Positions 15,752-64,000 of a DNA stretch of 64,000 nt are shown one piece after another. The position numbers were made by a program, and so were the translations under genes. The notes under the pieces are model-generated. The model was not told the DNA's origin, did no database searches, and saw nothing but the letters and a program-made list of their open reading frames with translations. Numbering within the stretch: the first letter of the stretch is position 1; each line of letters starts with the position of its first letter. The stretch is taken from NCBI GenBank assembly GCA_964187785.1, contig OZ076409.1, positions 65,288,001 to 65,352,000 on the forward strand. Reading direction: 5' to 3'. Origin of the DNA: Amphiscolops sp. MND2022 (taxonomy: Eukaryota).

Positions 15752-15766
15752 AAAAATGACGTCTCA

Positions 15767-16539
15767 TAAAACGGCAAGCTGTTATCGGTCGCTTAACACG
15801 TTAACAGAGGTGGAGGAACCTGCAGAAATGGGTGAATCGCTCGGGACAGGCGCCCATCGCCACAGATCCATTTTGCCTCCAGGGGTGAAATACGTCCCGG
15901 GGCCGCGGGTGCTTCGACGAATACTGTCCAACCGGTCCTAGTCTTTGATTGCTAATAGTAACGGGCATCTTTCTGGCTCTCTAAAGATCACCGCTTAACT
16001 AGCATATAAAAACAATGCCAAGAATAAGGTAAATTTCCAGTTCCAGGGTGACATGTGAATAAGATCTAAAATTGGGGAATAAGATCTAAACTAGCGCTAG
16101 CGCTACTGAATACAGCCAAAATCACTGAAAATACATGAAAACAGGCACGAATATGGCAAACCACACAGCTAAAAAGCTGGGGCGCAGGGGCTCCAAGCAC
16201 CAAACAAGGATCTTTAGGCGAAAAGACTCATTTTTACGGTTTCCGCTACATAGGGTAGCATAATGCTGAAAATCGATAAAACCGGTGTTAGCACCTCAAA
16301 AAGAGTCTATTTTCGGATGTTCTTGCCGTCTCTGGCTTCTGTCATGGCGGCGCGCCCGTATTTTTGCTCGTTCTTGCTCTTTGTTGTCGAAGTACCTGCC
16401 AATTTCGTGGAAACAGCGAAAAGAGCAATCACATGCTCAGTGCCACGTCACACATCGGATTAGAATTTTTGACAAAATTCCTGAACATGTCAAAGTTGCA
16501 AAATCGGTTGATATTGCTGTACCAGAGCTTGCCGTTACA
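15767..16539 (-). repeat. 5' LTR of element A
   Basis: Copy of 1006-1778 with about 2 internal substitutions seen; inner end reads TAAAAC instead of TGTAAC. Confidence 0.95.
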
Positions 16540-33627: not shown

Positions 33628-33862
33628 ACTCCAACGATAACATGGAAGTTCAACGGCGAGATGGTTGATGCAAAGAGTAAAAAAGAAACATCACATCACT
33701 TCAAGAATCTTAACGATGATGATTCAAAAGAAACTGAGAACAATTTTCAATTTGAAATTGACGACTTTCAGCCAGAAGATCACATGGGCAGATACGAGTG
33801 CATCCCCAGTGCCAACATTCCCCACCAATGTCACAAAACTATGCAGTTCAATTTGATCCACA
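33628..33862 (+). CDS. Host exon: C-terminal half of an Ig-like domain (gene is ADAMTS-like/papilin/MADD-4 type)
   Basis: ttttcag acceptor in phase 0; TPTITWKFNG...FEIDDFQPEDHMGRYEC; GTTAGT donor. Confidence 0.8.
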
Positions 33863-43532: not shown

Positions 43533-45009
43533 GTACAGTGGAATCCCAGTATTAAGTATCTTCACGGGAGGTATGTTCGAGTTACGTTATACTGAGACCT
43601 ACGCTATAAGGTGATTACATAAGTTTTGTACTGGAGAAACTAAAGAGTAAAAACGAAGTGATCGAGACTGTAACGAAGTGGAAATATTGAAAAAATGTCC
43701 CAACAGATTCAACTGAAGAAACAGTTTCTTGGTGCTTTAAAAGAGTTATTCAGGATCAGAAAATAGGTAATTTATATAGAATCAATTTTTTTGGGATCGA
43801 ATTATACAGGATTCGAAATCGATTCAATAAAAATTAAGTTTCTCGAAATTGATGGCATGACTCGGAGCTCCTCGTTCCGGAGTGCTTTGCAATCCTCCTG
43901 GTCGGCATTCGAAAAAAACCTTACCGCTGGTTAAGTAGTGGCACGTTGCTCCGCTTGGCTTCGATCCTGCGTTTAGGGCCCCATAGGTGTATCATTAAGG
44001 AAGTTTTCACTTCTTTCGATCCTAGATAAAACCAAGTCACAATACGATCCTAAATAATGTTGCAAACTTTTTGACCCTACGTAATTTGACCCTACGACTC
44101 TACACAGCAAGCCCCCTCAAAGGAATACACAATTACAGTATTTTCTTACAGCAAACTGTTTATACAACAATCCATTGCAGGGAGTGATTTAAGAGCAGTG
44201 ATAATTGTCTTAGTTTCTTCTCCGTTGAACAGATGAGAATTTGAATTGCTTTTGAGCGTCAGTCCTTCATGGGGCGAGGATACAACTATACGAAAACATA
44301 ATGCGTAAAAAATAAATTATCTTCAATGTCATCAAAAATTGCCAGACAAATGCAATAAAGCAAATAAATTAACGTCGACTCTTTTCTTTACGATATTGAT
44401 AAAGGTTGAAGATGTTTTCCGCAGAACTACTGTTACTTGTGTTGTGTTTAACACATCTTTTTCTTCAGTTAAATAATATTGAAACATTTATATAAAATTA
44501 TTTCATTGGAGTAAGAACAAAATTGTTCATTTTCCGTAAATCATTTTTCGCATTCTTTCAATTTTCAAGGCACGCTTGAAAAAATTATAGAAGTAAACAA
44601 ATTCACAACTGCGCGTTACTTGAAAGAACAAATTCCACTTCACAAAAGAGACGCTTGACACTTGTGCAAATAATTCTCTTTTATTCTCTTTGAAAAAGAC
44701 AATATGCGACGCCACTTGTGCGAGCAAATATCTCTAAGATAACAAAAGGCGCCACTTGTGCGGCCGGAGCTTCTCAATTTGAGAACAAAAGATTATTCAA
44801 GCGAGACCAAAAGTCCCCACTTGAGAGGACTAATTCCCCTGACATAAACAAAAGTTGCGTCAGCCAACTCGGCTAGCTGAGTTAAATGACTAGCTGATGC
44901 AATCTTTGCCGACTTGTACTCGGCTGTGCCTGGTCCCGAAGTCATTCCCGAGTAAAGACCGAGAATGTGACGTTAATTATTCGTGCCCAATAAAATGCAC
45001 CGATTACTG

Positions 45010-45180
45010 TGATTGGTTGCACGTGCTTTCTGATTTATATAAAAGGGCCAACTTTTCTAAAGACGATCATTCGCTTCTCACAGTTTTTCACCTCCCAAAC
45101 AAAAGCAAATCCGTCACTCTCTTCCTCTCAAAAATAAACAAATCTTCAAAACTCCACTCACTTCACTTTTCAGGTAAGTT
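45010..45180 (+). promoter_or_regulatory. Pol II promoter of element B (reverse CCAAT, TATA) and a 5' splice donor
   Basis: ATTGG at 45012, TATATAAAAG at 45036, TCATTC Inr-like about 30 nt later, CAG|GTAAGT at 45174. Confidence 0.7.
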
Positions 45181-45499
45181 ATTTTCTTTAACTTAGAGAA
45201 TAACAACAAAATTCACAAGTCAGAATTTCTTCTCTTTATTTATTCTTGTCTTCGTGACAACAAAATTGCAGTCATTCGACTGAACAAAAAGTTGACCAAC
45301 AAGGTTCTTCTATGCAATCATAGAGAATTCTATCTTGAGCTAAACGCTCCAAATAATCCAGATTCTCGATTGAGACTTATCTTATCTCTAAAGTACGCTA
45401 TCGCGTCAAGACTTAGCAAATGCTAGATAAAGTTAATTTATATCTTAACCTAAATTAAAATTAAAAACTAAAATGCATGTAATCTCTTAACTTATTTTA

Positions 45500-46245
45500 G
45501 CCGGACCTTAAGTTCGAGCTTTCTGACAATTCTGTACAAAAAAGCAACCTAGCTATACGCTGGCTGAATAAGACCTTTACATTACTTAGACTTGCAAGAC
45601 TTCTTCAATGTCTTGGTGTTAGACAATCTTGTCTCCTATTGACTTAGCCACTGCTAGTCACAACATAAGTTAAACTCTCAAAGCCCTGCACCGAACCTTA
45701 TGTTCGAGCAGCCCTTGGCAAACCTGTCGAAACACAAAACCTAGCTAAACGCTGGTTAATAAGACCTTTACTTGACTTAGACTTACAAGACTTCTTCAAA
45801 GTCTTGACGTTAGACAATCTTGTCTCTTTTTTGACTTAGCAAGCCTGCTAGTCCATTGCAATATGTTAAACTCTTAGAATACTGCAACGAACCTTATGTT
45901 CAAGCAGCTATTGGCAAACCTGTCCAAATACAAAACCTAGCTAAACGCTGGTTAATAAGACCTTTACTTGACTTAGACTTACAAGACTTCTTCAAAGTCT
46001 TGTCGTTAGACAATCTTGTCTCATTTTCGACTTAGCAAACCTGCTAGTCCATTGCATTAGGTTAAACTTTTAGAACACTGCAAAGAACCTTATGTTCAAG
46101 CAGCTATTGGCAACGCTGTCCAAACACAAAACCTAGATAAACGCTGGTTAAGCAGACTTTACTTTACCTAGACTTGCAAGACTTCCTCAAAGACTTGACG
46201 TTAGACAATCTTGTCTTTGACTTAGCTATTGCTGGTCATATGATT
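45500..46245 (+). repeat. Four tandem hairpin-rich repeats of about 196 bp inside the 5' LTR
   Basis: Anchor (a/g)acctt at about 45504, 45694, 45890, 46086. Confidence 0.9.
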
Positions 46246-46833
46246 TAAAACTTAACACTTTAAACTTTTCAGCTTTCTATAAGCTAGAACTTTTGACAAA
46301 CCTGTCATACCGTTGTCAACAGACTTAGCTAATCTCACATTCCTGTTGAGAATACTAAGTCATAAAAAGGTCTGAACAGACCAAAAATTTCAATACTTTT
46401 CGTCCTAACAAATTGTTGGATGTTATAGGACTACCAAATTCCAGTTTTTACAGTATTTAAACAACTTACCTGATTATTGCCACCTTAATAAGAGGTAGCA
46501 TGAGGTATTTATTTTTCGTGCATGTTAAACAATTCAGATATTATTGATTGGATATTTGTGTCAATTTGGATGATTATATTGTTCTGTTTGTATTATATTC
46601 TTGCGTATTGTGAAAAAACGAACATTCTGGAATATAATACTCAAACTAATTCAAATTCTTTTCATAAAATTAAACTCTTCTCTCGAAACAAAGTCCTTCC
46701 TGCGAACTCGGAAGACCTAGAGACAACTTTTGTAAAGGCTTAGGAAGGCATAGTCGCAAGCTAACTCCTAAGCAAAACTGAATAAGAATCGCAGAAAACT
46801 AATTTTCCTAAACCCACACGAACCTTTACAAAC

Positions 46834-46850
46834 TGGTGCAACCAGTGAGG
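46834..46850 (+). promoter_or_regulatory. Primer binding site of element B (tRNA identity not assigned)
   Basis: TTTACA-aac-TGGTGCAACCAGTGAGG just upstream of gag. Confidence 0.7.
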
Positions 46851-46872
46851 CATATACAAGGAAAAGAGAAGA

Positions 46873-48267
46873 ACGGCAGATAATACAGTTTCATTTCCCG
46901 ACCTCGCGTTGGACAAATTCTCAGGAAACGATCCTGAACAAGATGTTGGATCATTTCTCACAACTGTTGAGAACAAAATCAAATTCTCGATGGGTCATGA
47001 ACCCGACAATGATGACGAACGAGCAAGATACTTATTTCGCAAGAAGGCATTTTTTTCATCTCTCATAAAAGGACATGCCGCCGAATGGTACACAGACAAC
47101 ATAGAAGATGGACACGATTGGCAGCATATCAGAACACTTTTTTAAACCCGTTTTTCCGATAAAAGAGATAAATACAGATATAGAATAACTGCAGAAAACA
47201 GTTTCAGAGGAAATGAAGAAATAATAAAGAACTATTTTCACCGAGTGAAACGAGCTATCGATAGAGGGTGGCCGGATGTAGAAAATGCGGACAACGCAGC
47301 CAGAGCTGAACTGATCGCCCAAAGAAGAAAAAAGTATATTGAATTTGCAGTCAGAGGACTAACGCCAAATGAACTCAAGAACAAGGCTCACCAATACCTA
47401 ATTGAACACCCCAACGCAACTTGGGAACAATTTCAAGAACACGTCACTAATAAAGACCTTGTTTTTACTATCAGCTCGCAGTTAGCCCCGAATGCCTCAC
47501 AAAACCAAAAAACATTGATAAATGAACTACGAGAAGACATAAATGCAATGAAGAATATGCTAAAAGAACAACAAGTCATTTCCTTAGCTGTAACTAATCC
47601 TTTACCCTACGGATGCTCATCCTCCCACTGTCATGACTATCACGTCTCTGCAGTAGACGTAAATAACACGTCCCGCCAAAATTTCACACGATTTTGTATA
47701 TATTGCCGAAGGAATGGTCACACACTCCAATATTGCCGAAAAACGATCTATGATGACGAAGCCAAGAGAGCACAATCAAGAGCTAATGAAGAGAAGAAGG
47801 TCACCTTCACTAACGACTACAACAAACTGAAGGTACACAAATTTGGATCACAACAAAATTATCAGCCCTCACCAATACCGAACGTCACTAATATTCAGAG
47901 GAATAACCAACAGTCGACCCAAAACTTCAACAGAGGCAGACCTAACGAGGGAAACAATCGAAATGATAACTGGAACCGAAATAATCCTCAGCAGCCGAAC
48001 AACTTCAACAACTTCAATAGCAACAGCAATCACTTTTCAGGTAGTAGACCGACTCCTAGTAATACTAATTTGCGAAACAATACCCCCTATACTGGAAATA
48101 GGCCAAATAGCCCGTGTAACTTCAGTGCACGACCACAAAACACAAATTCTGAGTACAATAGGATTTTCCCAATCAACAATAACAGTTTCCCAAACTCCGT
48201 ACAGTTCATCGACGAAGAAGGACAGGACAGAGTTTGTACAATCTCGTTCAATCCTTTAAACTGCTAA
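46873..48267 (+). pseudogene. gag: Gag of element B with CCHC zinc knuckle and N/Q-rich tail
   Basis: LDKFSGNDPEQDVGSFL, GHAAEWY, CIYCRRNGHTLQYC; start codon appears mutated (ACG), frameshift at about 47140. Confidence 0.88.
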
Positions 48268-48346
48268 AGTCTCCGCGACCTGACGAAGAAAGTAACCTCA
48301 AATCACGATTTCACCTAAATCTCTTCTTTTTTTTCCACCGGAGACT
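48255..48346 (+). promoter_or_regulatory. -1 programmed ribosomal frameshift signal (gag/pol)
   Basis: T TTA AAC in the gag frame at 48255-48261, 6-nt spacer, stem AGTCTCCG (48268-48275) / CGGAGACT (48339-48346). Confidence 0.8.
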
Positions 48347-49139
48347 CCAAAAAAGATAGTGGGTTGGAAATAGAATTCATGTTAGACACAGGAGCAGCCT
48401 GCTTGATTATTAATTATAGAGCTTTTGAGGAAATTGCACAATTTGGACAACTCATCACGGTAGTCAGAAGCAAGCAACTGACTAAAACCTTTACTGGTGA
48501 AGTTATACCGATGCTCGGATCAAGAACAAGCACATTTAGTTTCGACTCGGATGGACTCCATCCCGTAGAACTGAAGTTTTGGATAAAAGAAGCGAAGACA
48601 CCCAATTTGCTGGGAATAGATTTCTGCCGTGAACTTGTTTCTAAATTCCATTTTGATTTGCCTGCAATCGAATTCAAAGAAAGTCCTAACACAATTTGCT
48701 ACGGTAACCTTTGTGCTACCAAACTTTTCCCGTACGTTTCAAAAGTCGAAACAATACGAACAGATAACCCAATTTGTATCGATACCAAAACCACCCGTCC
48801 ACACAAAAACTCTCGCGAGAACAACAGACATTTTGCACCCGGAACATCATTTACACCCCACAAAAATGAAGTCAAAACAGAGGACTTACCTTTGTGAATG
48901 TTTTATGTACAAAATCGGAATCCCACCTGCAAATTTTGATTGAAAATATTCGAAATCACTAAATAACCCTTAATAGAGGGATAATTGGTCATGCTATCAT
49001 AAATCTACAGGAAAGGGAACAACCGAAGTTCCAGATAAAGGATTGTGTCACGATCGTCAAGACATTTTTGAAGGAGAACCCAGACTACAACTATTGTTTC
49101 TTACTGCACTCAACAGTTCCTTTCGAGCACGAAGGAGAT

Positions 49140-49500
49140 CAACAAGTTTTTCTAAGCCACGGCTCCGGCGAGACCCTTCGAGCATCAAATGCAAATCTAG
49201 CTTTTTGCGTCTCAGCAGATGGAAAAATGACAACCACGTTTGCAAGAAAGTTGTGCGAACAGAAGAAGGATTCCCAGAAGTCCGTAAACCAATCGAAACC
49301 TTTCATTGGATCGGTTTTACCCTTTTGGGATAACGAAGCCCACCGCTTTTACTATGGACTAGTTGCAAAGAAAAGATGCTACGAAAAAATTAAACCCGGG
49401 GGTTTTCGTAGCTGCATCGAAAATCTGTTTGGACACTCACAGCCTAACAATATACCTGCAATTTCAATACCCAAAATTGAAGACGGCCTAGACAACCATA
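49140..49500 (+). CDS. TARG1/OARD1(Poa1p)-like macrodomain within pol
   Basis: LAFCVSADGKM...RFYYGLVAKKR...K...FRSCIENL...NNIPAISIPKIEDGLD matches the TARG1-family pattern LAHCISxD..M...IYYLITK...MPRIGCGLD. Confidence 0.8.
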
Positions 49501-52500
49501 ATAATAAACTATAATAATAAACTAAACCATAATATTAAACTATAATAATAATAATAAGGATGCTAAATCTTGTCAGCCACCCTGTACAGAACAATTTGTC
49601 GAACTTAGAACAAAAGAAGACAACGACGCATTGACAGAATACTACTTCTAATATCAGCCTGAAGAAATCAAGGCATATGTAAAAAAAATTCGATTTCCGA
49701 TATACTGACCTCCTAGATGAAGAATTGGTTGTCTTGACAGACATGCTTATTGACGCAGCGGACGTGTATTCACAACACAAATTTGACGTGGGAAAAGTAC
49801 GTCAAAAATTTCACGTAACCCGAAAGTTCGGAACTCAAAAAACAACGACCAAGCAAAGCACCCCTCCACTTGAAAGACAAACTTGAGAAACTACTTGGAC
49901 AACTCCAAGAAGCCGATATCATTAGCGAAATGGGAGACAATGACGAATTGGGTTCCCTTTTGGTCAATCCGATCATTCTAATGCCCAAACCAGACTACGT
50001 AAAGTTAGTAATCGACGCCCGCTACTTAAACTCTATAACGGATCTAACGAATTATTCGTGGCCATTAGAGCCCATACAGACGATCATGACTCGAATTAAC
50101 GGAAAATACTTCACAGTCAGCAACTTATCTTGCGCATATCACCAAGTTCCATTGAGCGACGAGACCCAAAAGCTCACTAGTTTCATCATCGGCGGAAAAC
50201 AGTATACGTATGTACGCGGTTTTTACGGACTCAGTGGACTTCCAAACTTTTTTTAGCCGTCTCATGGCTATACATTTTGAGTCCCTTATCAAACGAAAAC
50301 AAGCAATCACCTACCTTGATGACAGCCTAATGCAGGCTCAGACTAAACAAAAAATGTTCACAGTAATTCACGAGTACCATCAACTCCTAAGGAAAGCTGG
50401 ACTTGAAGCTGCACCTGAGAAGACAAACTTCTTCATCAGAAAAGTCCAATTCCTGGGTCATGTTATTTCTGAAAAAGGAATACAGCCCTTAGCAAAACGA
50501 GTACAGGATCTCAAAAACTTGAAATCACCCGAAAGTAAAAGGGAGGTGATGAAAGTACTTGGCTGTCTTGGGTTTTATAGTTGCTATATCAAAAACTTAC
50601 ATGTGGACAGTCAACCCTTCTACGATTTGATCAAAGCTACAACACCTTTCAAGTGGACGAAAGAACATGAAGAACTTTTCACCGATATAAAAAATCGAAT
50701 ATGTGAGGACACTATCCTTGCCGTTCCATCAACTGAGTACCCCTTCCACATACACGTCGATTCTTCAAATGTTGGTACCGGTTGTATTTTAGTACAACAA
50801 TTTCCAGAAGGGAAAAGGATAGTTTCTTTCAAGTCCCTTCACCGTGAATTGTGTGGTATAGTATCAGCACTTCAAACATACGAACACTACATTATTGGAT
50901 CTCCATTCCCAATATACCTCTACTGCGATCACAAACCCATCCTAAACCTTTGGGGAAGGAAAAGACAGCTCTCCCACCGCTTTTTCAAATACCAGGTGAT
51001 CATCACCAAAATCCAAAATCTCAAAATTATCTGGACTAAAGGATCCAATCTCGCATTTCCAGATATACTTAGTCGGAACATCACATTGGAGGAAACCAAA
51101 AACTTGCAAAAACTACACAAAGAAGTACCGCTAGATCTCAGTTTCTATGATGAATTTGGATCGAAAGTACATTATACAGTCAGTACATTATGACGACGGT
51201 CAGTGTGGAAGCAATGATTTTTTCCCTATCCTTTGCCGAAAGGGCAAAGATCAAAGACTACTCCATCTCAAGAATGACAGAGAGGAACATGAAGTAGAGC
51301 ACTACGAGAACTAACAAACAGTAATGGCGACTCACCAAGACATCGCCGATTGTTTCAAATTGGGAAAGTCAATCAACCAATACAAAAACCTCTGTCTTCC
51401 CTCATACAAAATACAGTGCGAACCCGAATATAGTAGAATAGACGAAATTGAAACAAATTCTAGTGATGACGAAGAGGATGTCGCCGAACTCCACCTTTCT
51501 AGCGTAGATCACGAGTTCTATCGTGATAAATCAACGGCAAAAAAAGTCCCACACGTTGACACTAAAGACCTCCTACAAAAACTGATTGTTCTAAAATCGC
51601 TGATCTAGATATCACGACTCTAGTTGCAGAGCAAATCAACGACCCCGTATTACAAGTAGTACGATCCTGGGTTAGAAACAATAACAAGCCAACCACCAAA
51701 AAACCTGAAATACAACAATCGAAGACCTTACTATCGTATTTCAACAATTTTAACCAACTTTTTCCCGATAAAGAAAGCAATCTACTCTGCTATAACGAAC
51801 CTGTTCATGGAACGGACATATTCGAAATGAAAATTTGTTTCTCCTTATCATTATTCCTGCCCCTCTTTAACATAGCTCACGCTCACACTCACAGCGGTCA
51901 CCCAGGCATATTCAAAACATTCGAAAACATCAGACAGAATTTCTTTTGGCCTGGACGATAAAAGTGGATAGTATCCCTCGTAGAAGATTGTTTACAGTGC
52001 CAGACTAATAAGTCTAAACGATACGATTTACAAGAAGCACATCTTGAACAGTGGGGTGAATTCGAAACAACCCCTTTCAAAACGATTCATATCGACCATA
52101 GAGGTCCCATCAGACCAAGCAGTAATTTGAAGACATATTGTCTAGTTGTAGTAGATGCATTTTCAACATTTCTTGGAGTCTACCCTGTTCGAGATACAGG
52201 AGCTCAGATTACAATCAATGCACTCGAAAAATGGATTAAATCCTACGACATCCCTCAAAAGATTGTCCACGATAATGGCTCAGCTTTCATCAGCCGTGAT
52301 TTTGTAAATTGGACAAAAGAATTTGGGATAACGCTGGCACCACGCACTGCATACTCGCCTTGGACGAACGGCAAAGTCGAAATCCAAAACGAACATCTCA
52401 TGACATACTGGACAAGTTTCACCAACGAGTCAGGAAACAATTGGTCGTCATTTGCGTCCAAATTTGCCTTTGCCCATAATACAAGCGTAAATTATACAAC

Positions 52501-54125
52501 GGTATGACTCCTTACGAAATTGTTTTTGGCGTTAAACCACAAATACCTATGACGCTGAGACTCGCACTTTTTCGCGACAAAAACAAACAATGCAAATCTG
52601 AGTTTTGTGCGGATCTACAACCTCACACCCATAGTGAAAATAACCTCTGAAACAATTCCCTTGATCGACTTCTTAAACCACAGTTATCTTCCGAGCTACT
52701 CACAAGAGAAAACGAATTCAAGTCAATCAACTCATCCACCCTCAAAAGAGAAATCACATCAAAGGCTCATGAGTATCGGAACCGTTTCAAACTGGGAAAA
52801 CCGCTCGAAGTCGGTCAAAAGGTTCTATTAGAAAATGACAAACCCGACCTATTCAAATACCAGAAATTGAAACATTTACGAGTTGGACCCTTCACGGTGA
52901 TAAAACAGAAAGCTATTACCACATACGAGATAAAAGAAGACGAAAACCCCGAGAACGTTAAAGTCACTCATCGAAACCAGTTACTAGAATATTTCCTCAA
53001 AGAGGAGACCTTGCCCCCATTGCTATCAAATTACGCTCCCAGAGAACAAGACGATAATTTTTACAAGCACTTGATCCAGAGTCAAATTGACAAACACAAT
53101 TCAGGACAATCTGAGCATAAACTAGATTTTATGCCACTCATCATAACCCCCCTTTCAGGGCCCAACAACAACAACACTACCAAAGGTTCTGAGTTTTCCC
53201 CCAGCACCGATTCTGGATTCCGTTCTCCGAAAACCCCACAATTTCACACCCCGATACCATCTACGTCTAACAACACCGTTCCAAGGGCACGTTCCCATCA
53301 CAGCTGTAGAACAAATCCACTTCCACAAACTGCATTGCCACTCGCTTTCTCTTCCAACACTCCTACCCAACTACCCAAGAGAACACCGGTTCTCCCGTCC
53401 GTACACCCTATCCACACAATGTCTCCCCCCGATGAAACTTCCCCAAAAACAGGAAAGTTATCTAACTTCAAGAAGAAAGTAACTACACGGTTTTCCGAAA
53501 AACCCAAAATTCCTAAATACGAACGAAGCACCCCCGGTAGCTCTCTCAGGGATATAGAACGAAAAGGCTATAAAGATTAGAAAGTAAATGATAACTCTAG
53601 CATTCACCACAACAACAAAATTTTAGCTGCGCTAAAATCCTGAACTATCTTTTTATTTCACAAAAAAATCTATGTAAATCGGACACTACACATCACTCTC
53701 TGTGTCATGAGACCCAGGGACAGAATAACTTATCGAAGAAAAACCCATGAAAGCGTGCATAATTGTGCCAACCCCTCTTTCCTGAATCTCGAACTCTTCG
53801 ATTGTCTTCAGGTCCTGAATGACATTGGACAATTTCTCAGCCTTACTGATAACTGCCATCAACGTACATGTTCGTTGACCACAACTTTTTGGATCGGGAA
53901 TTTCGATCTTTTCAAAAAAAACTTCAATTTTTTTATCACCTAGTCACAAAAAAAGTGGCTGCCCAGTGACCTCTTGGATACAACAACCACAAATTTATTA
54001 CCAGACAATTAGCAATAGCCTACGCTTACTGGTATACCCTTTTAGAACCCCTTACTCAATCAAAAGATTTTTGCCAAAAATCTTTACTTGGATCAATAAT
54101 TCCTGTATCAGAGAAAATTCGTGGC

Positions 54126-54325
54126 ATGGCGGTTCACCTTAAATGGTTGAACTGCATGGAATAGATACCACTGTGACTGTTGACGGTTTTCTTCAACAAG
54201 TCTTCCCAAGAGGCAAAACCACAAACAAAATTGTGCTATGGCGGTTCACCGTAAATGGTCGAACTGTCTGGAATAGGTAGCACTGTGACTGTTGATTTTT
54301 TAATCAACAAGCCTCCATAGAGGCG
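54126..54325 (+). repeat. Duplicated structured motif of about 90 nt (period 112 bp)
   Basis: atggcggttcacc.taaatggt.gaactg...ggaatag.ta.cactgtgactgttga...tcaacaag.ct.c..agaggc occurs twice. Confidence 0.8.
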
Positions 54326-56055
54326 ACTGCTCGAAACTTTTGGCCAACTTCCCTCATCTTTGGCTAAATGTTTGGATAATTATTATCAAAACGTTCTCTT
54401 ATTTCTCAACTTACAACGTAAAGTTGAAACAAAGTTATTACAAAAAATAATATTGAAATAAGAGACATCACAAACACAATTATTTACAAAAAATACAAAG
54501 ATTTACAAAATATCTTCCCTCTCAGCGGGGATAATAGCTGCCCCATTAGGAGGCGGATTGGGGTGCCCAGAACACAGACACACCATATATCTCCCCAACT
54601 CCGCTAGGTCCTGCAGCACTTGAAAAAACTGGCTCCGATCCAGCCGTCGAGCTATGTCTGGTCGATCTTGTGGAGCAGTCATCTCTCACCCCCGTACAAT
54701 AGCTTTGAGTTTAAAAACCCATGCGTCCTTGGTTCCGGACTGTACCGTCTCCCTCAACTAAAACAAACTGCAATCAATACACAAAACACAAAATCTCACA
54801 AACGTTTCCGTCTCTGCTCATCTTATCGCACTTAGAAACTACAGTTACAGAACTTACAGAATCGATACTAAGGACGATACTTTCCGTTTCCTTCTTACTC
54901 TTCGTGCTAAGAACTATATTAAAACCTCTTCCTTACAATGTTTCGGCATCACAAGTTAAACCACTCAACAACTTACGTGGTCGCCTAACGTCAACCTCAC
55001 TGCTCTCCAGAGTGGTTCTGGGCGTCGCAGAACTTCACCCACCGCAGTTGTCCCCGCCATCATTGGAAGCTCCTGATCGGTCACCAATGATCGCATATCA
55101 GCGAAGAGATCTGGTGCGAGATAAGCGTCATCAGCGGTAGAGAATGGCAAACGGTTCATCATGTAAAAGAAAAATCTAAATCACAACAACTAACTTGCAA
55201 TTTCAAATTTCATTTTCACCACCCCCCTTATGCCAATAAAAAATTTCCCTTCATTTTACACTCTGTTGTTCAACACTGTTTTTGTTTTCCCTCCAAGATT
55301 TACCACCATATGCTTCAACAATTTTTCTACTTCTTTTTCGGCGGTCGAGCGTGTCATATACACGATGACAAAAACTCAAAAAAACGAATATTGAAAACGA
55401 ACTTACTTGTGAATATGAAGAAATCAGACTAACATCCGAGAACGTATTCAACACAAACAAAACTTAAGCCACCATTTCAAAAACACACATGGCGTCCATA
55501 GAACTGAACCATTACAAAAGCACACTGTGAACAAACAATTTTTCAAACCACTCAAAACCACAAGGCAGCCAAAAGAACTAAACCATAACAAAAACGCATT
55601 CACTACAAGGCAAACTTCAAAACACAACTTCAAAAACACACATGGCACCCACAGTTCTCCAACAACAACAGCGCGTTTTTAATAAAAGGAACAGATGAAA
55701 ACCAGTGATGCAAGTCAAAGAAAACAGAAAAGAGGAGTCAACAACTAAAAGAAATTAACAAAAGAAGTCACTGCATGTTTTAACAAAAGCATGTAGAAAA
55801 CAAAAGAACACAAAATTTATATTACAAAGACTACAAAAAGAAGCAGATAAGTAGGAGAACAAAAAAATTAAGACAAAGCTCTGCTAAAGGAGAACCTTGT
55901 GAAAAGAACAAAAACACAATCGTATAAAATTTTGTCTCTTGAAAAGTCAAGCTCTTGCAACCGTAAAATTTGTTTAAATTTTACAAAATATGTCAAGTAG
56001 CATTTTCGAACATTGTATTTCATTTTAGTCAACTTTCAGCCAAATTCAACCAAAG

Positions 56056-56483
56056 ATGAAGCCCGTCTTATCCCAATCATCGTTATCAATAAAATCAATT
56101 TCAACTGCACATGGAATGTGATGCCCGAAGTCGAAGAGACTTCCATGATTGTACAAGAGTTTAACTGGAGCTGGCATCCAGCGGCAGATGTGGAAATTCG
56201 ATTCCACAATTACAGGTCAAAGCGAACGTACCATAAATGGTTAAAACCGGGATCATTTCTCTACATGTCTCTCACAGCAGCTCTAGTCACTTACAAAAGG
56301 GAACATGAACCGCAACTCTCTAAACAGGATATTGATGCCTTGAGCGCCATAACGGACCAAACGGACGCTACCTGCCGAAGTTCGAACTATAAAGACATGT
56401 ATATAGATATATTAGAAACCCTGATGCTCGGGCAAAAGATGGACAATTTTTTACATGTAAATAAAAGTCTTCTTCTTACATAA
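56056..56483 (+). pseudogene. Accessory ORF A (consensus about 144 aa, unknown function), unit 1
   Basis: ATG 17 nt after TTTCAG; a 7-nt deletion near the start relative to unit 2; rest open. Confidence 0.6.
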
Positions 56484-56554
56484 TTCATTTCTCTTCTCTT
56501 CGTTGTCATTTTAACTTAAACTGATAGCTCATCTGTAATCATTCATTTCAGCTT

Positions 56555-57054
56555 AGCACGGTAACGATCATAGTATCAATCTCTGCCGTGGTTGAAAAAC
56601 TTTTCAGCACGGTAACTATCAGAGTATCAATCTCTGCCGTGGGTAAATAACTTTTCAAAAAATCGATCACAGTAACGATCCTAGTATCAATCTCTGCAGT
56701 GGGTAAATAACTTTTCAAAGTCGAGCACGGTAACGATCACAGTATCAATCTCTGCCGTGGGTAAATAACTTTTCAAAGAATCAAGCACGGTAACGATTAT
56801 AGTGTCAATCTCTGCCGTGGGTAAACAAATTTTTCAAAAGCAAGCACGGTAACGATCCTAGTTATCAATCTCTGCCGTGGGTAATAAATTTGTTTCACTA
56901 AGCACGGTAACGATCTTAGTTATCAATCTCTGCCGTGGGTAAAAAAGCATTTCAGCACGGTAATGATCACAGTATCAATCTCTGCCGTGGGTAAAAAACT
57001 TTTTAGCACGGTAACGATTATAGTATCAATCTCTGCCGTGGGTAAAAAACTTTT
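56555..57054 (+). repeat. Array of 9 hairpin repeats (about 40-bp core plus 10-20-bp A/T linker), unit 1
   Basis: AGCACGGTAACGATNNNAGTATCAATCTCTGCCGTGGGTAAA x9, period 51-60 bp. Confidence 0.92.
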
Positions 57055-57073
57055 GATTATTTCAGTTCATCGT

Positions 57074-57292
57074 ATGACTTACATCAAAATTGAAAACAAA
57101 TTCTACCGGATCTATCAGACTGAGCTGGACCAAGATAGAATTTATATCTATCTAAAACACGACATCACTTCAAAAAAAGACATTGTGTTTGAATATCGAC
57201 AATCAGTCTACTGGGACTATTTTCTACACCTTATGACATTTGTGGGAGACATACCTACAGATTTGTTTAGAGGAGAAAGCAACCGCCTCTAA
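57074..57292 (+). CDS. Accessory ORF B (72 aa, unknown), unit 1
   Basis: ATG 9 nt after TTTCAG; intact in both units; MTYIKIENKFYRIYQTELDQDRIYIYLKH... Confidence 0.6.
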   Translation: MTYIKIENKFYRIYQTELDQDRIYIYLKHDITSKKDIVFEYRQSVYWDYFLHLMTFVGDIPTDLFRGESNRL

Positions 57293-57710
57293 TGAACCCA
57301 AAGTCTGTTCTCAAAAAAGACTCCCGCAAAAGAGCAAAACCGAGAATTACACAAAACTATCATTTTCCTACTATCTACTGGGACACCCTTTGGGAGAAAA
57401 AATACGAAGAACGTAGTTTCAACTGCCCATGGATAATTTTCGTTAGTGAAAACAACACAAAATTTTTGATTACCTATATTCGGTGAACTTGGACTTACGG
57501 AAGCAAGATTTGCATTCATTTCGAACGTTATGACCTGCCCAATAAAAAATACCAGAGGCAATTCTACAAAGACACTTTCCTATATGCATCACTAGCCGCT
57601 TCCGTCATTTTGTAAGAACACAAACCCGAAAGACACATCACAAAATTTTATTTAGATGTGCTGGGAGAATTAACCAGTGTTATGGACATCGAATGCGTCA
57701 CCTCCCCTAA
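57292..57710 (+). pseudogene. Accessory ORF C (consensus 138 aa, basic, Cys/His/Trp-rich), unit 1
   Basis: Starts in a TAATG overlap with ORF B; TGA at 57484 and a 2-nt insertion, both absent from unit 2. Confidence 0.55.
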
Positions 57711-59857
57711 ATAAAACCAGTTGTACACGGATCTTATCCAATTTTATGACTTGTAAGTTTCATAAACTAAAATCTTGTATTTTGTGTTGAATAAACTCTT
57801 ATAATCTCATTTCACTATCTTTTATTTCAAATTCAAAACCCATAATTTCACTTCTGTTAACAGAGTGTGGTTTCAGTGCTTATAATAACGGCTATCAACT
57901 GAGCCAGATACTGAAACTCTCAATCTATAGAATCGTGCACCAAATATAAAACTAAAACAGTGGTCACAACAAGCTACCAAACATCTATTTACTTTCGCTT
58001 TAGTTGAAGTCATTAGACAACATTTACCTCATTTCAGCCCCTGGAAGCATTTCCACGCCTGATTCAATTTTGATTCGCATCTGGTGGTCAACTAGACTCC
58101 GTCGACTCCTGGTTAGCAAGCTACCAAATTTATATCCAAATTTTGATTTGGTTGAAGACAGTAGACAAAACTTGTCCACTTTCAGTCATCCCGAAAAGCA
58201 GTCTTCATCAGTCAAATCAACCTTGATTGCAACTGGATTGTCAAATTCGACTCCACCAACTCTCGGTTAGCAAGCTACCGTTTAAATTTTCCCCTTCCTA
58301 AACTAATTTTAACATTTTGCCCTTCACAAAAAAGAAGTTTTGGCAATACCTAAGGTTCCTCCCATTAGATCCAAAATGTGCAGTGAATTCTTTATTATAC
58401 TCATTACGTGCTACACCCTCATCAATGGCCTTTCCAAACCCCAATCTGGACGACATTGCATAGAGACTCAGCAAGTCACATTATGAATGTGGAGAGATGA
58501 CTGAAAACAAATTATAGAACACAGACACACCATATATCTCCCCAACTCCGCTAAGTCGTGTAGCACTTGAAAAAACTGTCTCCGATCCAGTCGTCGAGCT
58601 ATGTCCGGTCGATCTTGTGAAGCAGTCATCTCCCACCCCCGTACAATAGCTTTGAGTTTAAAAACCCATACGTCCTTGGTTCCGGACTGTAGCGTCTCCC
58701 TCCACTAAAACAAACTGCAATCAATACACAAAACACAAACTCTCACAAACGTTTCCGTCTCTGCTTACCTTATCGCACTTAGAAACTACAGTTACAGAAC
58801 TTACAGAATCGATACTAAGGACGATATTTTCCGTTTCCTTCTTACTCTTCGTTCTAAGAACTATATTAAAACCTCTTCCTTACATTGTTTCGGCATCACA
58901 AGTTACACCACTCAACAACTTACGTGGTCGCCTAACGCCAATCTCACTGCTCTGCGGAGTGGTTCTGGGCGTAGTAGAACATCACCCACCGCAGTTGTCC
59001 CCGCCATCATTGGAAGCTCCTGATCGGTCACCAATGATCGCATATCAGCGAAGAGATCTGGTGCCAGATAAGCGTCATCAGCGGTAGAGAATGGCAAACG
59101 GTTCATCATGTAAGGGAAAAGTCTAAATCACAACAACTAACTTGCAATCTCAAATTTCTTTTTCACCACCCCCCTTATGCCAAAAAAAATTTCCCTTCAT
59201 TTTACACTCTGTTGTTCAACACTGTTTTTGTTTTCCCTCCAAGATTTACCACCATATGCTTCAACAATTTTTCTACTTCTTTTTCGGCGGTCGAGCGTGT
59301 CATATACACGATGACAAAAACTCAAGAAAAACGAATATTGAAAACGAACTTACTTGTGAATATGAAGAAATCAGACTAACATCCGAGAACGTATTCAACA
59401 CAAACAAAACTTAAGCCACCATTTCAAAAACACACATGGCGTCCATAGAACTGAACCATTACAAAAGCACACTGTGAACAAACAATTTTTCAAACCACTC
59501 AAAACCACAAGGCAGCCAAAAGAACTAAACCATAACAAAAACGCATTCACTACAAGGCAAACTTCAAAACACAACTTCAAAAACACACATGGCACCCACA
59601 GTTCTCCAACAACAACAGCGCGTTTTTAATAAAAGGAACAGATGAAAACCAGTGATGCAAGTCAAAGAAAACAGAAAAGAGGAGTCAACAACTAAAAGAA
59701 ATTAACAAAAGAAGTCACTGCATGTTTTAACAAAAGCATGTAGAAAACAAAAGAACTCAAAATTTATATTACAAAGACTACAAAAAGAAGCAAAGAAGTA
59801 TGAGAACAAAAAACTAAGACAAAGCTCTGCTAAAGGAGAACCTTGTGAAAAGAACAA

Positions 59858-60343
59858 CAAGACGAGAACGTCTAAAGTCGGCGCCATATCTAAGGCTCAA
59901 AAAGCGTAAAACACTTTTTTTGAAAAAAAATTGAAATTTTTGAAAAAAATTTTTCTTTCAAAAGAAGTCGCATAGTGCCGAAAAATGTAAAAGGGGGGAC
60001 CCTTCTTTATTTATTAACAAACATTCCGTTGCAAAATATCAAAAAACTCAAAGGGGGGACCCTTTGGGGACATTAAAAAATTTTCGAAAAAAAGTCGCAC
60101 AGTTCCAAAAAAAATCCAAAGGGGGGACCCTTTGGGCACGCCCGGTTTTGTATGTTTCCTTGAAAAAGTAAAAAATGAAAGGGGGGACCCTTTGGAGTAA
60201 AGTTTGCCTTGGGCGGACTTGGCCAGGTGCTCTGCGCAGAATTGTAAAAAGTGGACCGATCAGAGTGAGGATTGTAGTCTGAAGAAAAAAAAAGGTCACT
60301 GCTATAGTCGGACATATTTCCTTAAAAGGAAAACGCGCCGACT
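59858..60343 (-). mobile_element. Complete HINE inserted in cassette unit 2
   Basis: Absent from unit 1 (gaaaagaac|aaaaacac); minus strand TT|AGTCGGCGC...GCGCCGACT-TT-AGACG-TTCT-CGTCT-TG|TT. Confidence 0.88.
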
Positions 60344-60489
60344 AAAAACACAATAGTATAAAATTTTGTCTCTTGAAAAGTCAAGCTCTTGCAACCGTAA
60401 AATTTGTTTAAATTTTACAAACTATGTCAAGTAGCATTTTCGAACATTGTATTTCAATTTAGTCAACTTTCAGCCAAATTCAACCAAAG

Positions 60490-60923
60490 ATGAAGCCCGT
60501 CTTTGATGATATTCCAATCATCGTTATCAATAAAATCAATTTCAACTGCACTGGAATGTGATGCCCGAAGTCGAAGAGACTTCCATGATTGTACAAGAGT
60601 TTAACTGGAGCTGGCATCCAGCGGCAGTTGTGGAAATTCGATTCCACAATTACAGGTCAAAGCAAACGTACCATAAATGGTTAAAACCGGGATCATTTCT
60701 CTACATGTCTCTCACAGCAGCTCTAGTCACTTACAAAAGGAAACCTGAACCGCAAATTTCTAAACAGGACATTGATGCCTTGAGCGCCATTACGGACCAA
60801 ATGGACGCTACCTGCCGAAATTCGAACTATAAAGACATGTATATAGATATATTAGAAACCCTGAAGCTCTGGCAAGAGATGGACGATTTTTTACTTGTAA
60901 ATAAAAGTCTTCTTCTTACCTAA
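60490..60923 (+). pseudogene. Accessory ORF A, unit 2
   Basis: Intact start MKPVFDDIPII, 1-nt deletion at about 60551 where unit 1 is intact. Confidence 0.6.
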
Positions 60924-60994
60924 TTCTTTTCTCTTCTCTTTGTTGTCACTTCAACTTAAACTGATAGCTCATCTGTAATCATTCATTTCAGCTT

Positions 60995-61498
60995 AGCACG
61001 GTAACGATCATAGTATCAATCTCTGCAGTGGGTGAAAAACTTTTCAGCAAGGTAACGATCAAAGTATCAATCTCTGCCGTGGGTAAATAACTTTTCAAAA
61101 AATCGATCACGGTAACGATCCTAGTATCAATCTCTGCAGTGGGTAAATAACATGTCAAAGTCGAGCACGGTAACGATCACAGTATCAATCTCTGCCGTGG
61201 GTAAATAACTTTTCAAAGAATCAAGCACGGTAACGATCATAGTGTCAATCTCTGCCGTGGGTAAACAACTTTTCAAAAGCAAGCACGGTAACGATCCTAG
61301 TTATCAATCTCTGCCGTGGGTAAAAAAAAATTTGTTTCACTAAGCACGGTAACGATCTTAGTTATCAATCTCGGCCGTGGGTAAAAAAACTTTTCAGCAC
61401 GGTAACGATCACAGTATCAATCTCTGCCGTGGGTGAAAAAACTTTTTAGCACGGTAACGATCATAGTATCAATCTCTGCCGTGGGTAAAAATCTTTTG
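60995..61498 (+). repeat. Array of 9 hairpin repeats, unit 2
   Basis: Same units in the same order as 56555-57054. Confidence 0.92.
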
Positions 61499-61516
61499 AT
61501 TGTTTCAGTTCATCGA

Positions 61517-61735
61517 ATGACTTACATCAAAATTGAAAACGAATTCTACCGGATCTATAAGACTGAGCTGGACCAAGATAGAATTTATATCTATCTAAAA
61601 CACGACATCACTTCAAAAAAAAACATTGTTTTTGCAGATCGACAATCAGTCTACTGGGACAATTTTCTACACCTTATGACATTTGTGGGAGACATACCTA
61701 CAGATTTGTTTAGAGGAGAAAGCAACCGCCTCTAA
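61517..61735 (+). CDS. Accessory ORF B (72 aa), unit 2
   Basis: Intact copy. Confidence 0.6.
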   Translation: MTYIKIENEFYRIYKTELDQDRIYIYLKHDITSKKNIVFADRQSVYWDNFLHLMTFVGDIPTDLFRGESNRL

Positions 61736-62151
61736 TGAACCCACAGTCTGTTCTCAAAAAAGACTCCCGCAAAAGAGCAGAACCGAGAATTACACAAAAC
61801 TATCATTTTCCTACTATCTACTGGGACACCCTTTGAGAGAAGAAATACGAAGAACGTAGTTTCAACTGCCCCTGGATAATTTTCGTTAGTGAAAACAACG
61901 CAAAATTTTTGATTACCTTTATTCGGTGGACTTGGACTTACGGATGCAAGATTTGCATTCATTTCGAACGCTACGACCTGCCCAATAAAAAGTACGAGGC
62001 AAATCTACAAAGACACTTTCCTATATGCATCACTAGCCGCTTCCGTCATTTTGTAAGAACACAAACCCGAAAGACACATCACAAAATTTTATTTAGATGT
62101 GCTGGGAGAATTAACCAGTGTTATGGACATCGAATGCGTCACCTCCCCTAA
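61735..62151 (+). pseudogene. Accessory ORF C, unit 2
   Basis: 417 nt in one frame with a single TGA at about 61834 where unit 1 has TGG. Confidence 0.55.
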
Positions 62152-62978
62152 GTATAACCAGTTGTACACGGATCTTATCCAATTTTATGATTTGTAAGTT
62201 TCATAAACTAAAATCTTGTATTTTGTGTTGAATAAACTCTTATAATCTCATTTCACTATCTTTTATTTCAAATTCAAAACCCATCATTTCACTTCTGTTA
62301 ACAGAGTGTACTTTCAGTGCTTATAATAACGACTATCAACTGCGCCAGATACTGAAACTCTCAATTTATAGAATCGTGCACCAATCTTAAAACTAAAGCA
62401 GTGGTCACTGTGACTACACCCTCTTTTGGTTAGCAAGCTACCAAACATCTATTTACTTTTGCTTTAGTTGAAGTCATTAGACAACATTTACCTCATTTCA
62501 GCCCCTGGAAGCATATTCACGCCTGATTCAATTTTGATTCGCATCTGGTCGTCAACTAGACTCCGTCGACTCCTGGTTAGCAAGCTACCAAATTTATATC
62601 CAAATTTTGATTTGAATGAAGACAGTAGACAAAACTTGTCCACTTTCAGTCATCCCAAAAAGCAGTCTTCATCAATCAAATCAACCTTGATTGCAACTGG
62701 ATTGTCAAAATCGACTCCACCAACTCTCGGTTAGCAAGCTACCGTTTAAATTTTCCCCTTCCTAAACTAATTTTAACATTTTGCCCTTCACAAAAAAGAA
62801 AGTTTGGCAATACCTAAGGTTCCTCTCATTAGATCCAAATTGTGCACTGAATTCTTTTTAATACTCATTACGTGCTACACCCTCATCAATGGCCTTCCGA
62901 ACCCCAATCTGGACGACATTGCACAGAGACTCAGCAAGTCACATTATGATTGTGGAGAGATGACTGAAAACAAATTAT

Positions 62979-64000
62979 AGAACACAGACACACCATTCAT
63001 CCCCCCAACTCCGCTAGGTCCTGCAGCACTTGAAAAAACTGGCTCCGATCCAGCCGTCGAGCTATGTCCATTCGATCTTGTGGAGCAGTCATCTCTCACC
63101 ACCGTACAATAGCTTTGAGTTTAAAAACTCATACGTCCTTGGTTCCGGGCTATAACGTCTCCCTCCACTAAAACAAACTGCAATCAATACACAAAACACA
63201 AAATCTCACAAACGTTTCCCTCTCCGCTTACCTTATCGCACTTAGAAACTACAGTTACAGAACTTACAGAATCGATACTAAGGACGATACTTTCCGTTTC
63301 CTTCTTACTCTTCGTGCTAAGAACTATATTAAAACCTCTCCCTTACAATGTTTCGGCATCACAAGTTACACCACTCAACAACTTACGTGGCCGCCTAACG
63401 CCAACCTCACTGCTCTCCGGAGTGGTTCTGGGCGTCGCAGAACTTCACCCACCGCAGTTGTCCCCACCATCATTGGAAACTCCTGATCGGTCACCAATGA
63501 TCGCAAATCAGCGAAGAGATCTGGTGCCACATAAGCGTCATCAGCGGTAGAGAATGGCAAACGGTTCATCATGTAAAGGAAAAGTCTAAATCACAACAAC
63601 TAACTTGCAATCTCAAATTTCATTTTCACCACCCCCCTTATGCCAATAAAAAATTTCCCTTCATTTTTCACTCTGTTGTTCAACACTGTTTTTGTTTTCC
63701 CTCCAAGATTTACCACCATATGCTTCAAAATTTTTCTACTCCTTTTTCGGCGGTCGAGCGTGTCATATACACGATTACAAAAACTCAAGAAAAACGAATA
63801 TTGAAAACGAACTTACTTGTGAATGTGAAGAAATCAGACTAACATCCGAGAACGTATTCAACACAAACAAAACTTAAGCCACCACTTCAAAAACACACAT
63901 GGCGTCCAAAGAACTGAACCATTACAAAAGCACACTGTGAACAAACAATTTCTCAAACCACTCAAAACCACATGGCAGCCAAAAGAACTGAACCATAACA
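62979..64000 (+). repeat. Tandem cassette, unit 3 (cut by the window end)
   Basis: Colinear with the first 1 kb of units 1 and 2. Confidence 0.95.

What the first reader, a model, noticed from the sequence alone, without database searches (positions are those of the whole stretch)
56555..57054. CRISPR-looking array of nine hairpins with a variable loop
Seen: a conserved core CACGGTA-AC-GAT-(loop of about 10 nt)-ATC-TC-TGCCGTG can fold with a G-U pair, which works best on the sense RNA. Linkers vary in length (period 51-60), and 2-3 loop positions vary (CAT, CAG, CCT, CAC, TAT, CTT), while the 3' arm TCAATCTCTGCCGTGG is nearly invariant. The same order recurs at 60995-61498. Conserved cores with drifting linkers suggest selection rather than plain minisatellite slippage (inference). 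It could be a multivalent protein-binding RNA platform or a source of processed small RNAs.
Basis: partly seen in the sequence, partly recalled or inferred. Interest (0 to 1): 0.75.

Follow-up and report, generated by a model that had tools for sequence, protein, structure and literature searches.

The report
Hairpin array in retrotransposon gene cassette
This is not CRISPR but a row of nine near-identical palindromic units on loose A/T-rich linkers, sitting between small genes of no known family in the tail of a worn animal jumping gene, where it likely served as a repeated protein-docking site, probably on the element's RNA, that would help control how that RNA is cut and spliced.

Summary
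The array is real: nine 34-35 bp imperfect palindromes, period 51-60. It is not CRISPR; the linkers are related to each other. It lies in the 3' accessory cassette of a decayed animal Ty3/Gypsy retrotransposon, between ORF A (followed by AATAAA) and ORF B/C, bracketed by TTTCAG acceptor-like sites. The copy at 60995 belongs to a 3.95-kb tandem duplication, so it is not independent evidence. The two copies give an internal control. Since the duplication, arms (6/216) changed about like loops plus linkers (12/292). Before it, arms differ at 1 of 24 columns while linkers differ by about 37 edits. That points to past constraint (selection, or conversion). There is no covariation, the antisense strand folds as well, and no RNA run was listed. 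ORFs A and C are paralogs, found in dozens of family copies, with no fold match. Best reading: a multivalent protein-binding element, likely on RNA (0.4); DNA enhancer 0.3. The architecture resembles Sirevirus palindromic repeats and Xist Repeat A. The scan noted hairpin arrays in other retrotransposons before, but not this sequence.

The parts
56555..57065 (+). Array of nine units: AG + 34-35 bp imperfect dyad core (12-bp arms, 10-11 nt centre) + 17-26 nt A/T-rich linker
60995..61508 (+). Second copy of the array, inside the duplicated 3.95-kb unit; same nine units in the same order
56056..56483 (+). ORF A, worn copy of a 110/136-aa family of unknown function; paralog of ORF C; upstream ATG out of frame in this copy
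56460..56465 (+). AATAAA just after the point where ORF A family members end; 91 nt before the acceptor-like site
   Evidence: function inferred
56546..56551 (+). TTTCAG acceptor-like site 5 nt before the first core
   Evidence: use inferred
57060..57065 (+). TTTCAG acceptor-like site closing the array, 8 nt before the ORF B ATG
   Evidence: use inferred
57074..57292 (+). ORF B, 72 aa, open in both copies; its stop overlaps the ORF C start (TAATG)
   Evidence: no Pfam family
57292..57756 (+). ORF C, broken copy (internal stop) of a 154-aa family; paralog of ORF A
57790..57876 (+). AATAAA followed 86 nt later by TTTCAG, repeating the junction seen after ORF A
54569..58515 (+). 3.95-kb accessory unit, copy 1; copy 2 at 58516-62978 (with a 480-bp insert at 59864-60343), copy 3 from 62979 to the window end
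46849..48267 (+). Gag-like frames with a CCHC-type motif, broken
   Evidence: assignment from position and motif (own knowledge); no significant Pfam hit
48379..53580 (+). Broken Pol: protease, macro-like insert, RT, RNase H, integrase (Ty3/Gypsy order)
45036..45179 (+). TATA-like box, initiator-like TCATTC and a CAG/GTAAGT donor-like site in the presumed 5' end of the element
   Evidence: seen in the sequence; function inferred; LTR not delimited

Best explanation
The array is a non-coding row of nine palindromic units in the accessory-gene cassette of a decayed animal Ty3/Gypsy retrotransposon, and it likely worked as a multivalent protein-binding platform on the element's RNA that would set the choice between full-length genomic RNA and short accessory-gene messages. 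Shown: the position between ORF A's AATAAA and ORF B's acceptor-like site, constraint on the cores before the duplication, and background-rate decay since. Inferred: (1) the cassette is read as one transcript and cut into messages at AATAAA/TTTCAG junctions, by cis-splicing from the 5' donor or by spliced-leader trans-splicing; (2) units fold as they are made into 34-nt stem-loops with a 2x2 internal loop and a partly fixed 10-11 nt loop, and can re-pair between units; (3) a host RNA-binding protein or the element's own ORF A/C product binds them, damping cleavage at the upstream AATAAA or splicing at the flanking acceptors.
For: Position: AATAAA 56460, TTTCAG 56551, array, TTTCAG 57065, ATG 57074; the same AATAAA-to-TTTCAG step (86 nt) follows ORF C, in both copies. 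TTTCAG outside the array in one unit: 6 on + against 1.7 expected (1 of 200 shuffles), 2 on - against 2.0. A host-like Ig exon in the window also follows TTTTCAG. Constraint: arms vary at 1 of 24 columns among units where both copies agree, whereas linkers need about 37 edits to connect; between copies arms 6/216 vs loop+linker 12/292, p 0.48. Favouring RNA over DNA (all weak): the centre is 11 nt in 2 of 9 units in both copies; periods are 4.9-5.8 helical turns, unphased; conservation is one-sided, covering the 3' part of the loop and 5 nt beyond the stem; no half-site near the presumed promoter. The cassette is a fixed part of a family: 10 of 15 listed ORF C members and 8 of 15 listed members of the closest Pol cluster share an exact contig length with ORF A (or A/C) members, against 0 of 90 for six other Pol clusters. 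Architectural precedent: Xist Repeat A, eight ~50-nt monomers of conserved core plus degenerate spacer that suppress local splicing (bioRxiv 10.1101/2025.05.21.655143, passages).
Against: 0 of 10 pairs covary, and all 6 departing cells break pairs. The antisense strand folds as well or slightly better. The stem is weak (about -9 kcal/mol) and the intra-unit fold is not dominant at equilibrium. AATAAA is not significantly enriched (7 vs 3.6, 13 of 200). Unpaired positions in the arms are as fixed as paired ones, so sequence, not pairing, is what is seen to be conserved. The same change recurs in separate units (C>A in three, C>T in two), which hints at conversion between units. Only two related copies of the array were available.
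Confidence: 0.4

Rival explanations
1. A DNA-level array of dyad sites acting as internal enhancer, promoter or anti-silencing target for ORF B/C, bound by a dimeric host factor or by an element-encoded protein (like Sirevirus repeated motifs, baculovirus hrs, the gypsy insulator or VANC targets).
For: Dyad with a CGG...CCG signature, nine copies, directly upstream of a 3' extra ORF, as described for Sirevirus RMs (PMC2829016 section 9). A/T-tract linkers of variable length as in the gypsy insulator (PMC2374998 passages). No strand preference in folding. CpG-rich: 26 in 522 bp vs 97 in 3425 bp.
Against: No half-site copies in the presumed promoter region, whereas Sirevirus RMs are abundant in LTRs. 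Centre length varies 10/11 and units are unphased. About 40 conserved bp per unit is long for one factor (own judgement).
Confidence: 0.3
2. A neutral minisatellite: a chance palindrome amplified in tandem, with cores homogenised by unit-to-unit conversion or template switching and A/T-tract linkers scrambled by reverse-transcriptase slippage.
For: The array now decays at the background rate (18/508 vs 2-6% for flanks). Identical changes recur in separate units. Tandem repeats are common in such elements (this one also has 196-bp and 112-bp repeats).
Against: Linker differences include 7-9-nt mixed-sequence inserts, not only run-length changes. The arm-to-linker contrast is about 40-fold before duplication but about 2.5-fold after. 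Caveat: the later changes were probably made by host replication, not by reverse transcriptase.
Confidence: 0.15
3. An array of splice signals: 35-36-nt mini-exons separated by 16-25-nt GT...AG tiny introns, or mutually exclusive 5'-leader exons for ORF B.
For: 17 of 18 linkers begin G-GT and 16 of 18 end in AG; the array is bounded by TTTCAG at both ends.
Against: Only 8 of 18 linkers end in TTT[CT]AG and 0 of 18 have +5 G, while the element's leader donor is a full GTAAGT. Exon lengths of 35 and 36 nt keep no frame, and all three frames of the unspliced array have 6-14 stops.
Confidence: 0.07
4. A cluster of small-RNA precursors: in the shifted register, the invariant 3' arm, the linker (as loop) and the next 5' arm form 54-64-nt hairpins that release one ~22-nt RNA.
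For: The invariant block is about 24 nt, and the shifted hairpins have pre-miRNA length with the variable part in the loop.
Against: Only about 10-15 pairs and -5 to -15 kcal/mol; long linkers make a large unpaired loop. The array starts and ends in the unshifted register. No Rfam match at E<=1. The miRNA criteria used are recalled.
Confidence: 0.07
5. A CRISPR-like repeat-spacer memory array.
For: Palindromic 34-bp repeats with variable intervening sequence.
Against: Linkers are homologous to each other (edit distance 2-12) and unchanged in order between copies. The flanks are retrotransposon genes with no cas family. No Rfam CRISPR repeat match. Animal context.
Confidence: 0.01

Closest known systems
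Sirevirus repeated motifs (RMs) of plant Ty1/copia elements (PMC2829016 section 9; PMC4728375 passages)
   Same: High-copy (8 or more) palindromic motif with a CGG-CCG signature, clustered upstream of a 3' extra ORF of an LTR retrotransposon; arms more conserved than the centre; can form hairpins; function not shown experimentally in the text read.
   Different: RMs are 10-20 bp and also fill the LTR. Here the dyad is 34-35 bp in a strict head-to-tail array, absent from the presumed 5' end, in an animal Gypsy element with a multi-ORF cassette.
Xist Repeat A (PMC10870365 and bioRxiv 10.1101/2025.05.21.655143, passages)
   Same: About 450-500 nt of 8-9 monomers of ~50-60 nt, each a conserved core plus a degenerate spacer; both intra- and inter-repeat pairing; spacers resemble polypyrimidine tracts.
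   Different: No sequence relation (no Rfam hit); mammalian lncRNA versus a retroelement; linkers here are A-tract plus T-tract; no binding data here.
gypsy insulator of Drosophila (PMC2374998 passages)
   Same: [quoted passage not shown]
   Different: That has 12 non-palindromic 12-bp Su(Hw) sites in the 5' UTR; this unit lacks the TGCATA core and lies 3' of pol.
Baculovirus homologous regions (PMC4535591 passages)
   Same: Several ~60-bp repeats, each with a 24-28-bp imperfect palindrome, in A/T-rich surroundings.
   Different: hrs are dispersed origins and enhancers of a circular DNA virus; here there is one array per cassette in a retroelement.
VANC/VANDAL anti-silencing systems (PMC5735166 passages)
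   Same: A transposon with accessory proteins and a tandem-repeat-borne motif in its non-coding DNA.
   Different: Plant DNA transposons with a 9-bp non-dyad motif and demonstrated binding. ORF A/C show no known family or fold, and CpG decay in the cores is low (2 transitions among 18 units).
LTR retrotransposons with extra 3' ORFs (rotifer Vesta/Juno, Ogre, Burro; PMC5408684, PMC6431247 passages)
   Same: Family-specific additional ORFs after pol, typically expressed from spliced messages.
   Different: Here there are at least three small ORFs, two of them paralogs without known relatives, with repeated AATAAA-to-TTTCAG junctions and a TAATG overlap.

Membership tests
CRISPR array | Unrelated (unique) spacers between repeats | tested here: not met
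   Linkers share the start (17 of 18 G-GT) and a T-run (14 of 18), edit distance 2-12
CRISPR array | cas genes or a known direct-repeat family nearby | tested here: not met
   18 flanking ORFs give only retroelement Pfam families above cut-off; Rfam 0 matches in 44000-64000
Ty3/Gypsy LTR retrotransposon (host element) | Pol order protease-RT-RNase H-integrase | tested here: met
Ty3/Gypsy LTR retrotransposon (host element) | Pair of LTRs, PBS, PPT | tested here: inconclusive
   No match between 44300-46800 and 53580-64000; the 3' end probably lies beyond the window
Sirevirus repeated motif | Palindrome with CGG-CCG signature, 8 or more copies, upstream of a 3' extra ORF | tested here: met
   against the description
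Sirevirus repeated motif | Further copies in the LTR upstream of the TATA box | tested here: inconclusive
   No half-site within 1 mismatch in the presumed 5' end, but the LTR is not delimited
Sirevirus repeated motif | Plant Ty1/copia element | tested here: not met
   Gypsy domain order; Ig-domain exon in the window
gypsy insulator | 12-bp Su(Hw) consensus sites in the 5' UTR | tested here: not met
   The unit lacks TGCATA and lies 3' of pol
Xist Repeat A | 8-9 monomers of ~50 nt, conserved core plus degenerate spacer, inter-repeat pairing | tested here: met
   Architecture only
Xist Repeat A | Sequence homology to the Xist repeat | tested here: not met
   No Rfam match at E<=1
Xist Repeat A | Binding of SR proteins/SPEN and local suppression of splicing | not testable with these tools
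   No RNA or binding data
Conserved structured RNA motif | Compensatory base changes | tested here: inconclusive
   0 of 10 pairs covary, but 6 of 10 never vary and the 18 units are closely related
pre-miRNA cluster | Stable 55-70-nt hairpin with most of a 22-nt arm paired (criterion recalled) | tested here: not met
   About 10-15 pairs, -5 to -15 kcal/mol
pre-miRNA cluster | Discrete small-RNA reads | not testable with these tools
   No RNA holder listed
VANC-type protein/motif system | Accessory protein binds the repeated motif | not testable with these tools
   Fold searches of ORF A and C gave no clear match
Baculovirus hr | Enhancer and origin activity at several dispersed loci of a DNA virus | tested here: not met
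   One array per cassette of a retroelement; activity itself untested

The most novel reading that the evidence does not exclude
An animal Gypsy family runs its tail as a eukaryotic operon. Several small genes are cut out of one transcript at AATAAA/TTTCAG junctions by the host's spliced-leader machinery, and a Repeat-A-like nine-unit RNA array, read by the element's own pair of paralogous new-fold proteins (ORF A/C), acts as a Rev/RRE-like switch between genomic RNA and accessory messages.
Probability: 0.12. Interest if true: 0.8.

Novelty: new variant of a known kind. Interest (0 to 1): 0.42.

Why it matters
Retrotransposons with extra genes must keep a full-length RNA while making short messages, and how simple LTR elements of invertebrates do this is little studied (own knowledge). 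A family with dozens of copies carrying two paralogous proteins without known relatives beside a constrained nine-unit array gives a compact, testable protein-plus-site candidate. The duplicated cassette also gives a clean before/after control on constraint. If the array proves to be a plain enhancer or minisatellite, it is one more case of a known pattern.

Tried and rejected
No genome is held for this window. No RNA holder was listed, so no reads were laid; this is no evidence on expression. No related locus was found: DNA patterns in viral, genome and metagenome contigs gave 0 matches, and protein or alignment queries gave no confirmed locus, so covariation across the family could not be tested. 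Rfam gave 0 matches and no tRNA was found. ORF A, B and C have no Pfam family above cut-off and ORF A and C no ESM Atlas hit. Fold models (ORF A pLDDT 65, ORF C 73; beta-meander plus three helices) had no clear match: best VIA Z 5.4 and 4.8, no Foldseek hit at E<=0.001; this does not prove a new fold. The A:C complex prediction gave no verdict. One search used a structure string that was one column off and is disregarded; one search is the valid count. The tblastn part printed nothing and was rerun. Considered and dropped: coding repeat (stops in all frames); lox-like 13+8+13 recombination site (geometry recalled; no recombinase among flanking ORFs, centre length varies); Pol III mini-genes (a T4 run in 14 of 18 linkers, but no convincing A/B box by eye); assembly artefact (copies differ by ~4% and one carries an insert). 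Ten paper searches were run. Searches looked for this kind of element, and their listings showed no description of it; subscription papers and Repbase-type libraries are not covered. The host was not identified: an acoel is a recalled guess from the look of the Pol sequence, untested.

Full report
Observation. The array is there as described: nine units from 56557 to 57054 with periods 51, 60, 58, 60, 59, 58, 53, 51, and nine more from 60997. Each unit is AG, a 12-bp left arm, a 10-nt centre (11 in units 6 and 7), a 12-bp right arm and a 17-26-nt linker. The arms form an imperfect dyad with 10 possible pairs (one G-U on the sense strand) and a 2x2 mismatch. The dyad pattern matches 11 of 18 units exactly and never occurs in 100 shuffles. 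The antisense strand folds as well as the sense strand (cores -9.2 vs -8.8; whole array -124.4 vs -123.4). At equilibrium only about 2 of 9 left arms pair with their own right arm on the sense RNA, the rest pairing with neighbours or distant units; folding during transcription would favour the intra-unit hairpins (inference). And no pair covaries (0 of 10; 6 never vary, and 6 cells break pairs).

Context. Upstream lie broken Gag-like frames and a broken Pol in the order protease, macro-like insert, RT, RNase H, integrase: a decayed Ty3/Gypsy element, with relatives in clusters of hundreds of members. An Ig-domain exon-like stretch elsewhere in the window points to an animal host. I did not identify the host. 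An acoel is a recalled guess. It matters only because Symsagittifera roscoffensis is reported to have 52% LTR elements and spliced-leader trans-splicing of 30% of genes (PMC9911081, passages and supplement text; the SL figure was not seen). After pol comes a 3.95-kb unit (54569-58515) repeated in tandem at 58516-62978 and again from 62979, at 95-97% identity, copy 2 carrying a 480-bp insert. The second array is therefore a duplicate. No partner LTR was found in the window.

The cassette. Within the unit the order is: ORF A, AATAAA (56460), TTTCAG (56551), array, TTTCAG (57065), ORF B (57074-57292), TAATG overlap, ORF C (57292-57756), AATAAA (57790), TTTCAG (57876); copy 2 has the same layout. 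TTTCAG outside the array occurs 6 times on the sense strand of one unit against 1.7 expected (1 of 200 shuffles), and at chance level on the other strand; AATAAA is not significantly enriched (13 of 200). ORF A has 11 clusters of relatives at 62-92% identity, some with many identical full-length members. ORF C (154 aa; clusters of 25 and 32 members) is its paralog (E 2e-10). Using exact contig length as a proxy, 10 of 15 listed ORF C members share a contig with an ORF A member, and 8 of 15 listed members of the closest Pol cluster share one with ORF A or C, against 0 of 90 listed for six other Pol clusters. The cassette is thus a regular part of one dispersed family. That the array sits in those other copies too is inferred; I could not see their DNA. 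Models of A and C show a beta-meander followed by three helices with no clear structural match.

Constraint. The two copies give an internal control. Between copies, arms differ at 6 of 216 positions, centres at 3 of 92, and linkers at 9 of 200 plus 3 gaps; the array as a whole (3.5%) matches its flanks (2-6%) (arms vs rest p 0.48). So it now decays at the background rate. Among units, counting only cells where both copies agree, arms vary at 1 of 24 columns, the centre at 3 of 10 columns plus one insertion, and the linkers need about 37 edits to connect. The arm-to-linker contrast is roughly 40-fold before the duplication and 2.5-fold after. This is best read as purifying selection in the active lineage. 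Two caveats: reverse transcriptase slips in A/T runs more than host replication does, and identical changes recur in separate units (C>A three times, C>T twice), so conversion between units may homogenise cores. Unpaired arm positions, most of the centre and five bases beyond the stem are as fixed as the paired ones, so what is conserved is about 40 nt of sequence per unit, with a one-sided distribution.

Mechanism. CRISPR is excluded: linkers are homologous, there are no cas families and no Rfam match. A coding repeat is excluded by stops in all frames. Mini-exons are tempting, since 17 of 18 linkers start G-GT and 16 of 18 end in AG, but only 8 keep TTT[CT]AG, none has +5 G, and the exon lengths keep no frame. 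Small-RNA precursors are weak on pairing and energy. What remains is a repeated binding site. I put RNA (0.4) ahead of DNA (0.3) for these reasons: the array fills exactly the space between two acceptor-like sites just downstream of a poly(A)-like signal that a genomic RNA must read through; the centre tolerates an extra base; units are not helically phased; and the motif is absent from the presumed promoter region. None of these is decisive. The proposed job, damping cleavage or splicing so that full-length RNA survives, and the proposed binder (host protein or ORF A/C) are inferred, not shown.

Comparison. The nearest retroelement precedent is the Sirevirus repeated motif: palindromic, CGG-CCG signature, 8-32 copies, clustered before the extra 3' ORF and in the LTR, function unproven in the text read (PMC2829016, passages and section 9; PMC4728375, passages). 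The gypsy insulator (PMC2374998, passages), baculovirus hrs (PMC4535591, passages) and VANC target arrays (PMC5735166, passages) are DNA-level analogues. Xist Repeat A is the RNA-level analogue in size and layout, and is reported to suppress local splicing (PMC10870365 and bioRxiv 10.1101/2025.05.21.655143, passages; bioRxiv supplements not seen). Extra 3' ORFs expressed from spliced messages are known (PMC5408684 and PMC6431247, passages). The array is a member of none of these families; it works like them at best. The listings of searches showed no description of this element or array. Earlier scan notes report hairpin arrays in other retrotransposons (unchecked) but nothing with this sequence.

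Verdict. This is a real, formerly constrained cis-element array in an unusual, operon-like accessory cassette of a Gypsy family. It is a new variant of a known kind, interest 0.42. The bold reading, a self-regulating retrotransposon operon, has about 12% and would merit 0.8.

Noticed in passing
window 45645, 45837, 46033, 46223 and 58114, 58268, 62431, 62578, 62732: A second, small hairpin family with a bulged T and a shared TAGC..GCT[AG] core occurs both in the 196-bp leader repeats and in the 3' unit, on different outer stems (GAC/GTC vs GG/CC) that both pair. Only two independent origins, so weak, but a candidate packaging or docking motif.
   Followed up: partly
window 48963-49514: Pol carries a macro-like domain between protease and RT (PF01661 E 0.09 on relative P0049; precomputed on P0092 and P0128). 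One paper search listed nothing on it.
   Followed up: partly
window 57290-57294 and 61733-61737: ORF B stop overlaps ORF C start as TAATG, a layout recalled from termination-reinitiation in viruses and some retroelements.
   Followed up: no
window 54569-64000: The accessory unit is tandemly triplicated (95-97% identity); copy 2 carries a 480-bp dispersed repeat with relatives near 21440, 22620, 27500, 33980 and 37300.
   Followed up: partly
window 54721-55140 and 55310-55432: Further small ORFs (139 aa; 40-52 aa) with AATAAA at 55235 and an acceptor-like site at 55297 between them, extending the operon-like layout.
   Followed up: partly
window 54115-54295: Two 112-bp repeats, each with a stable hairpin (z about -3), in a hairpin-rich stretch between pol and the accessory unit.
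   Followed up: no
window 33631-33837: Isolated Ig-domain exon-like stretch after TTTTCAG (PF13927 E 3e-5, below cut-off), suggesting that the window lies within a long animal gene.
   Followed up: partly
window 1009-16540: A second, unrelated Gypsy-type element on the minus strand with 771-bp repeats at 99.7% identity, so a young insertion.
   Followed up: no
window 19348-20706: Broken Tc1/mariner transposase on the minus strand.
   Followed up: no
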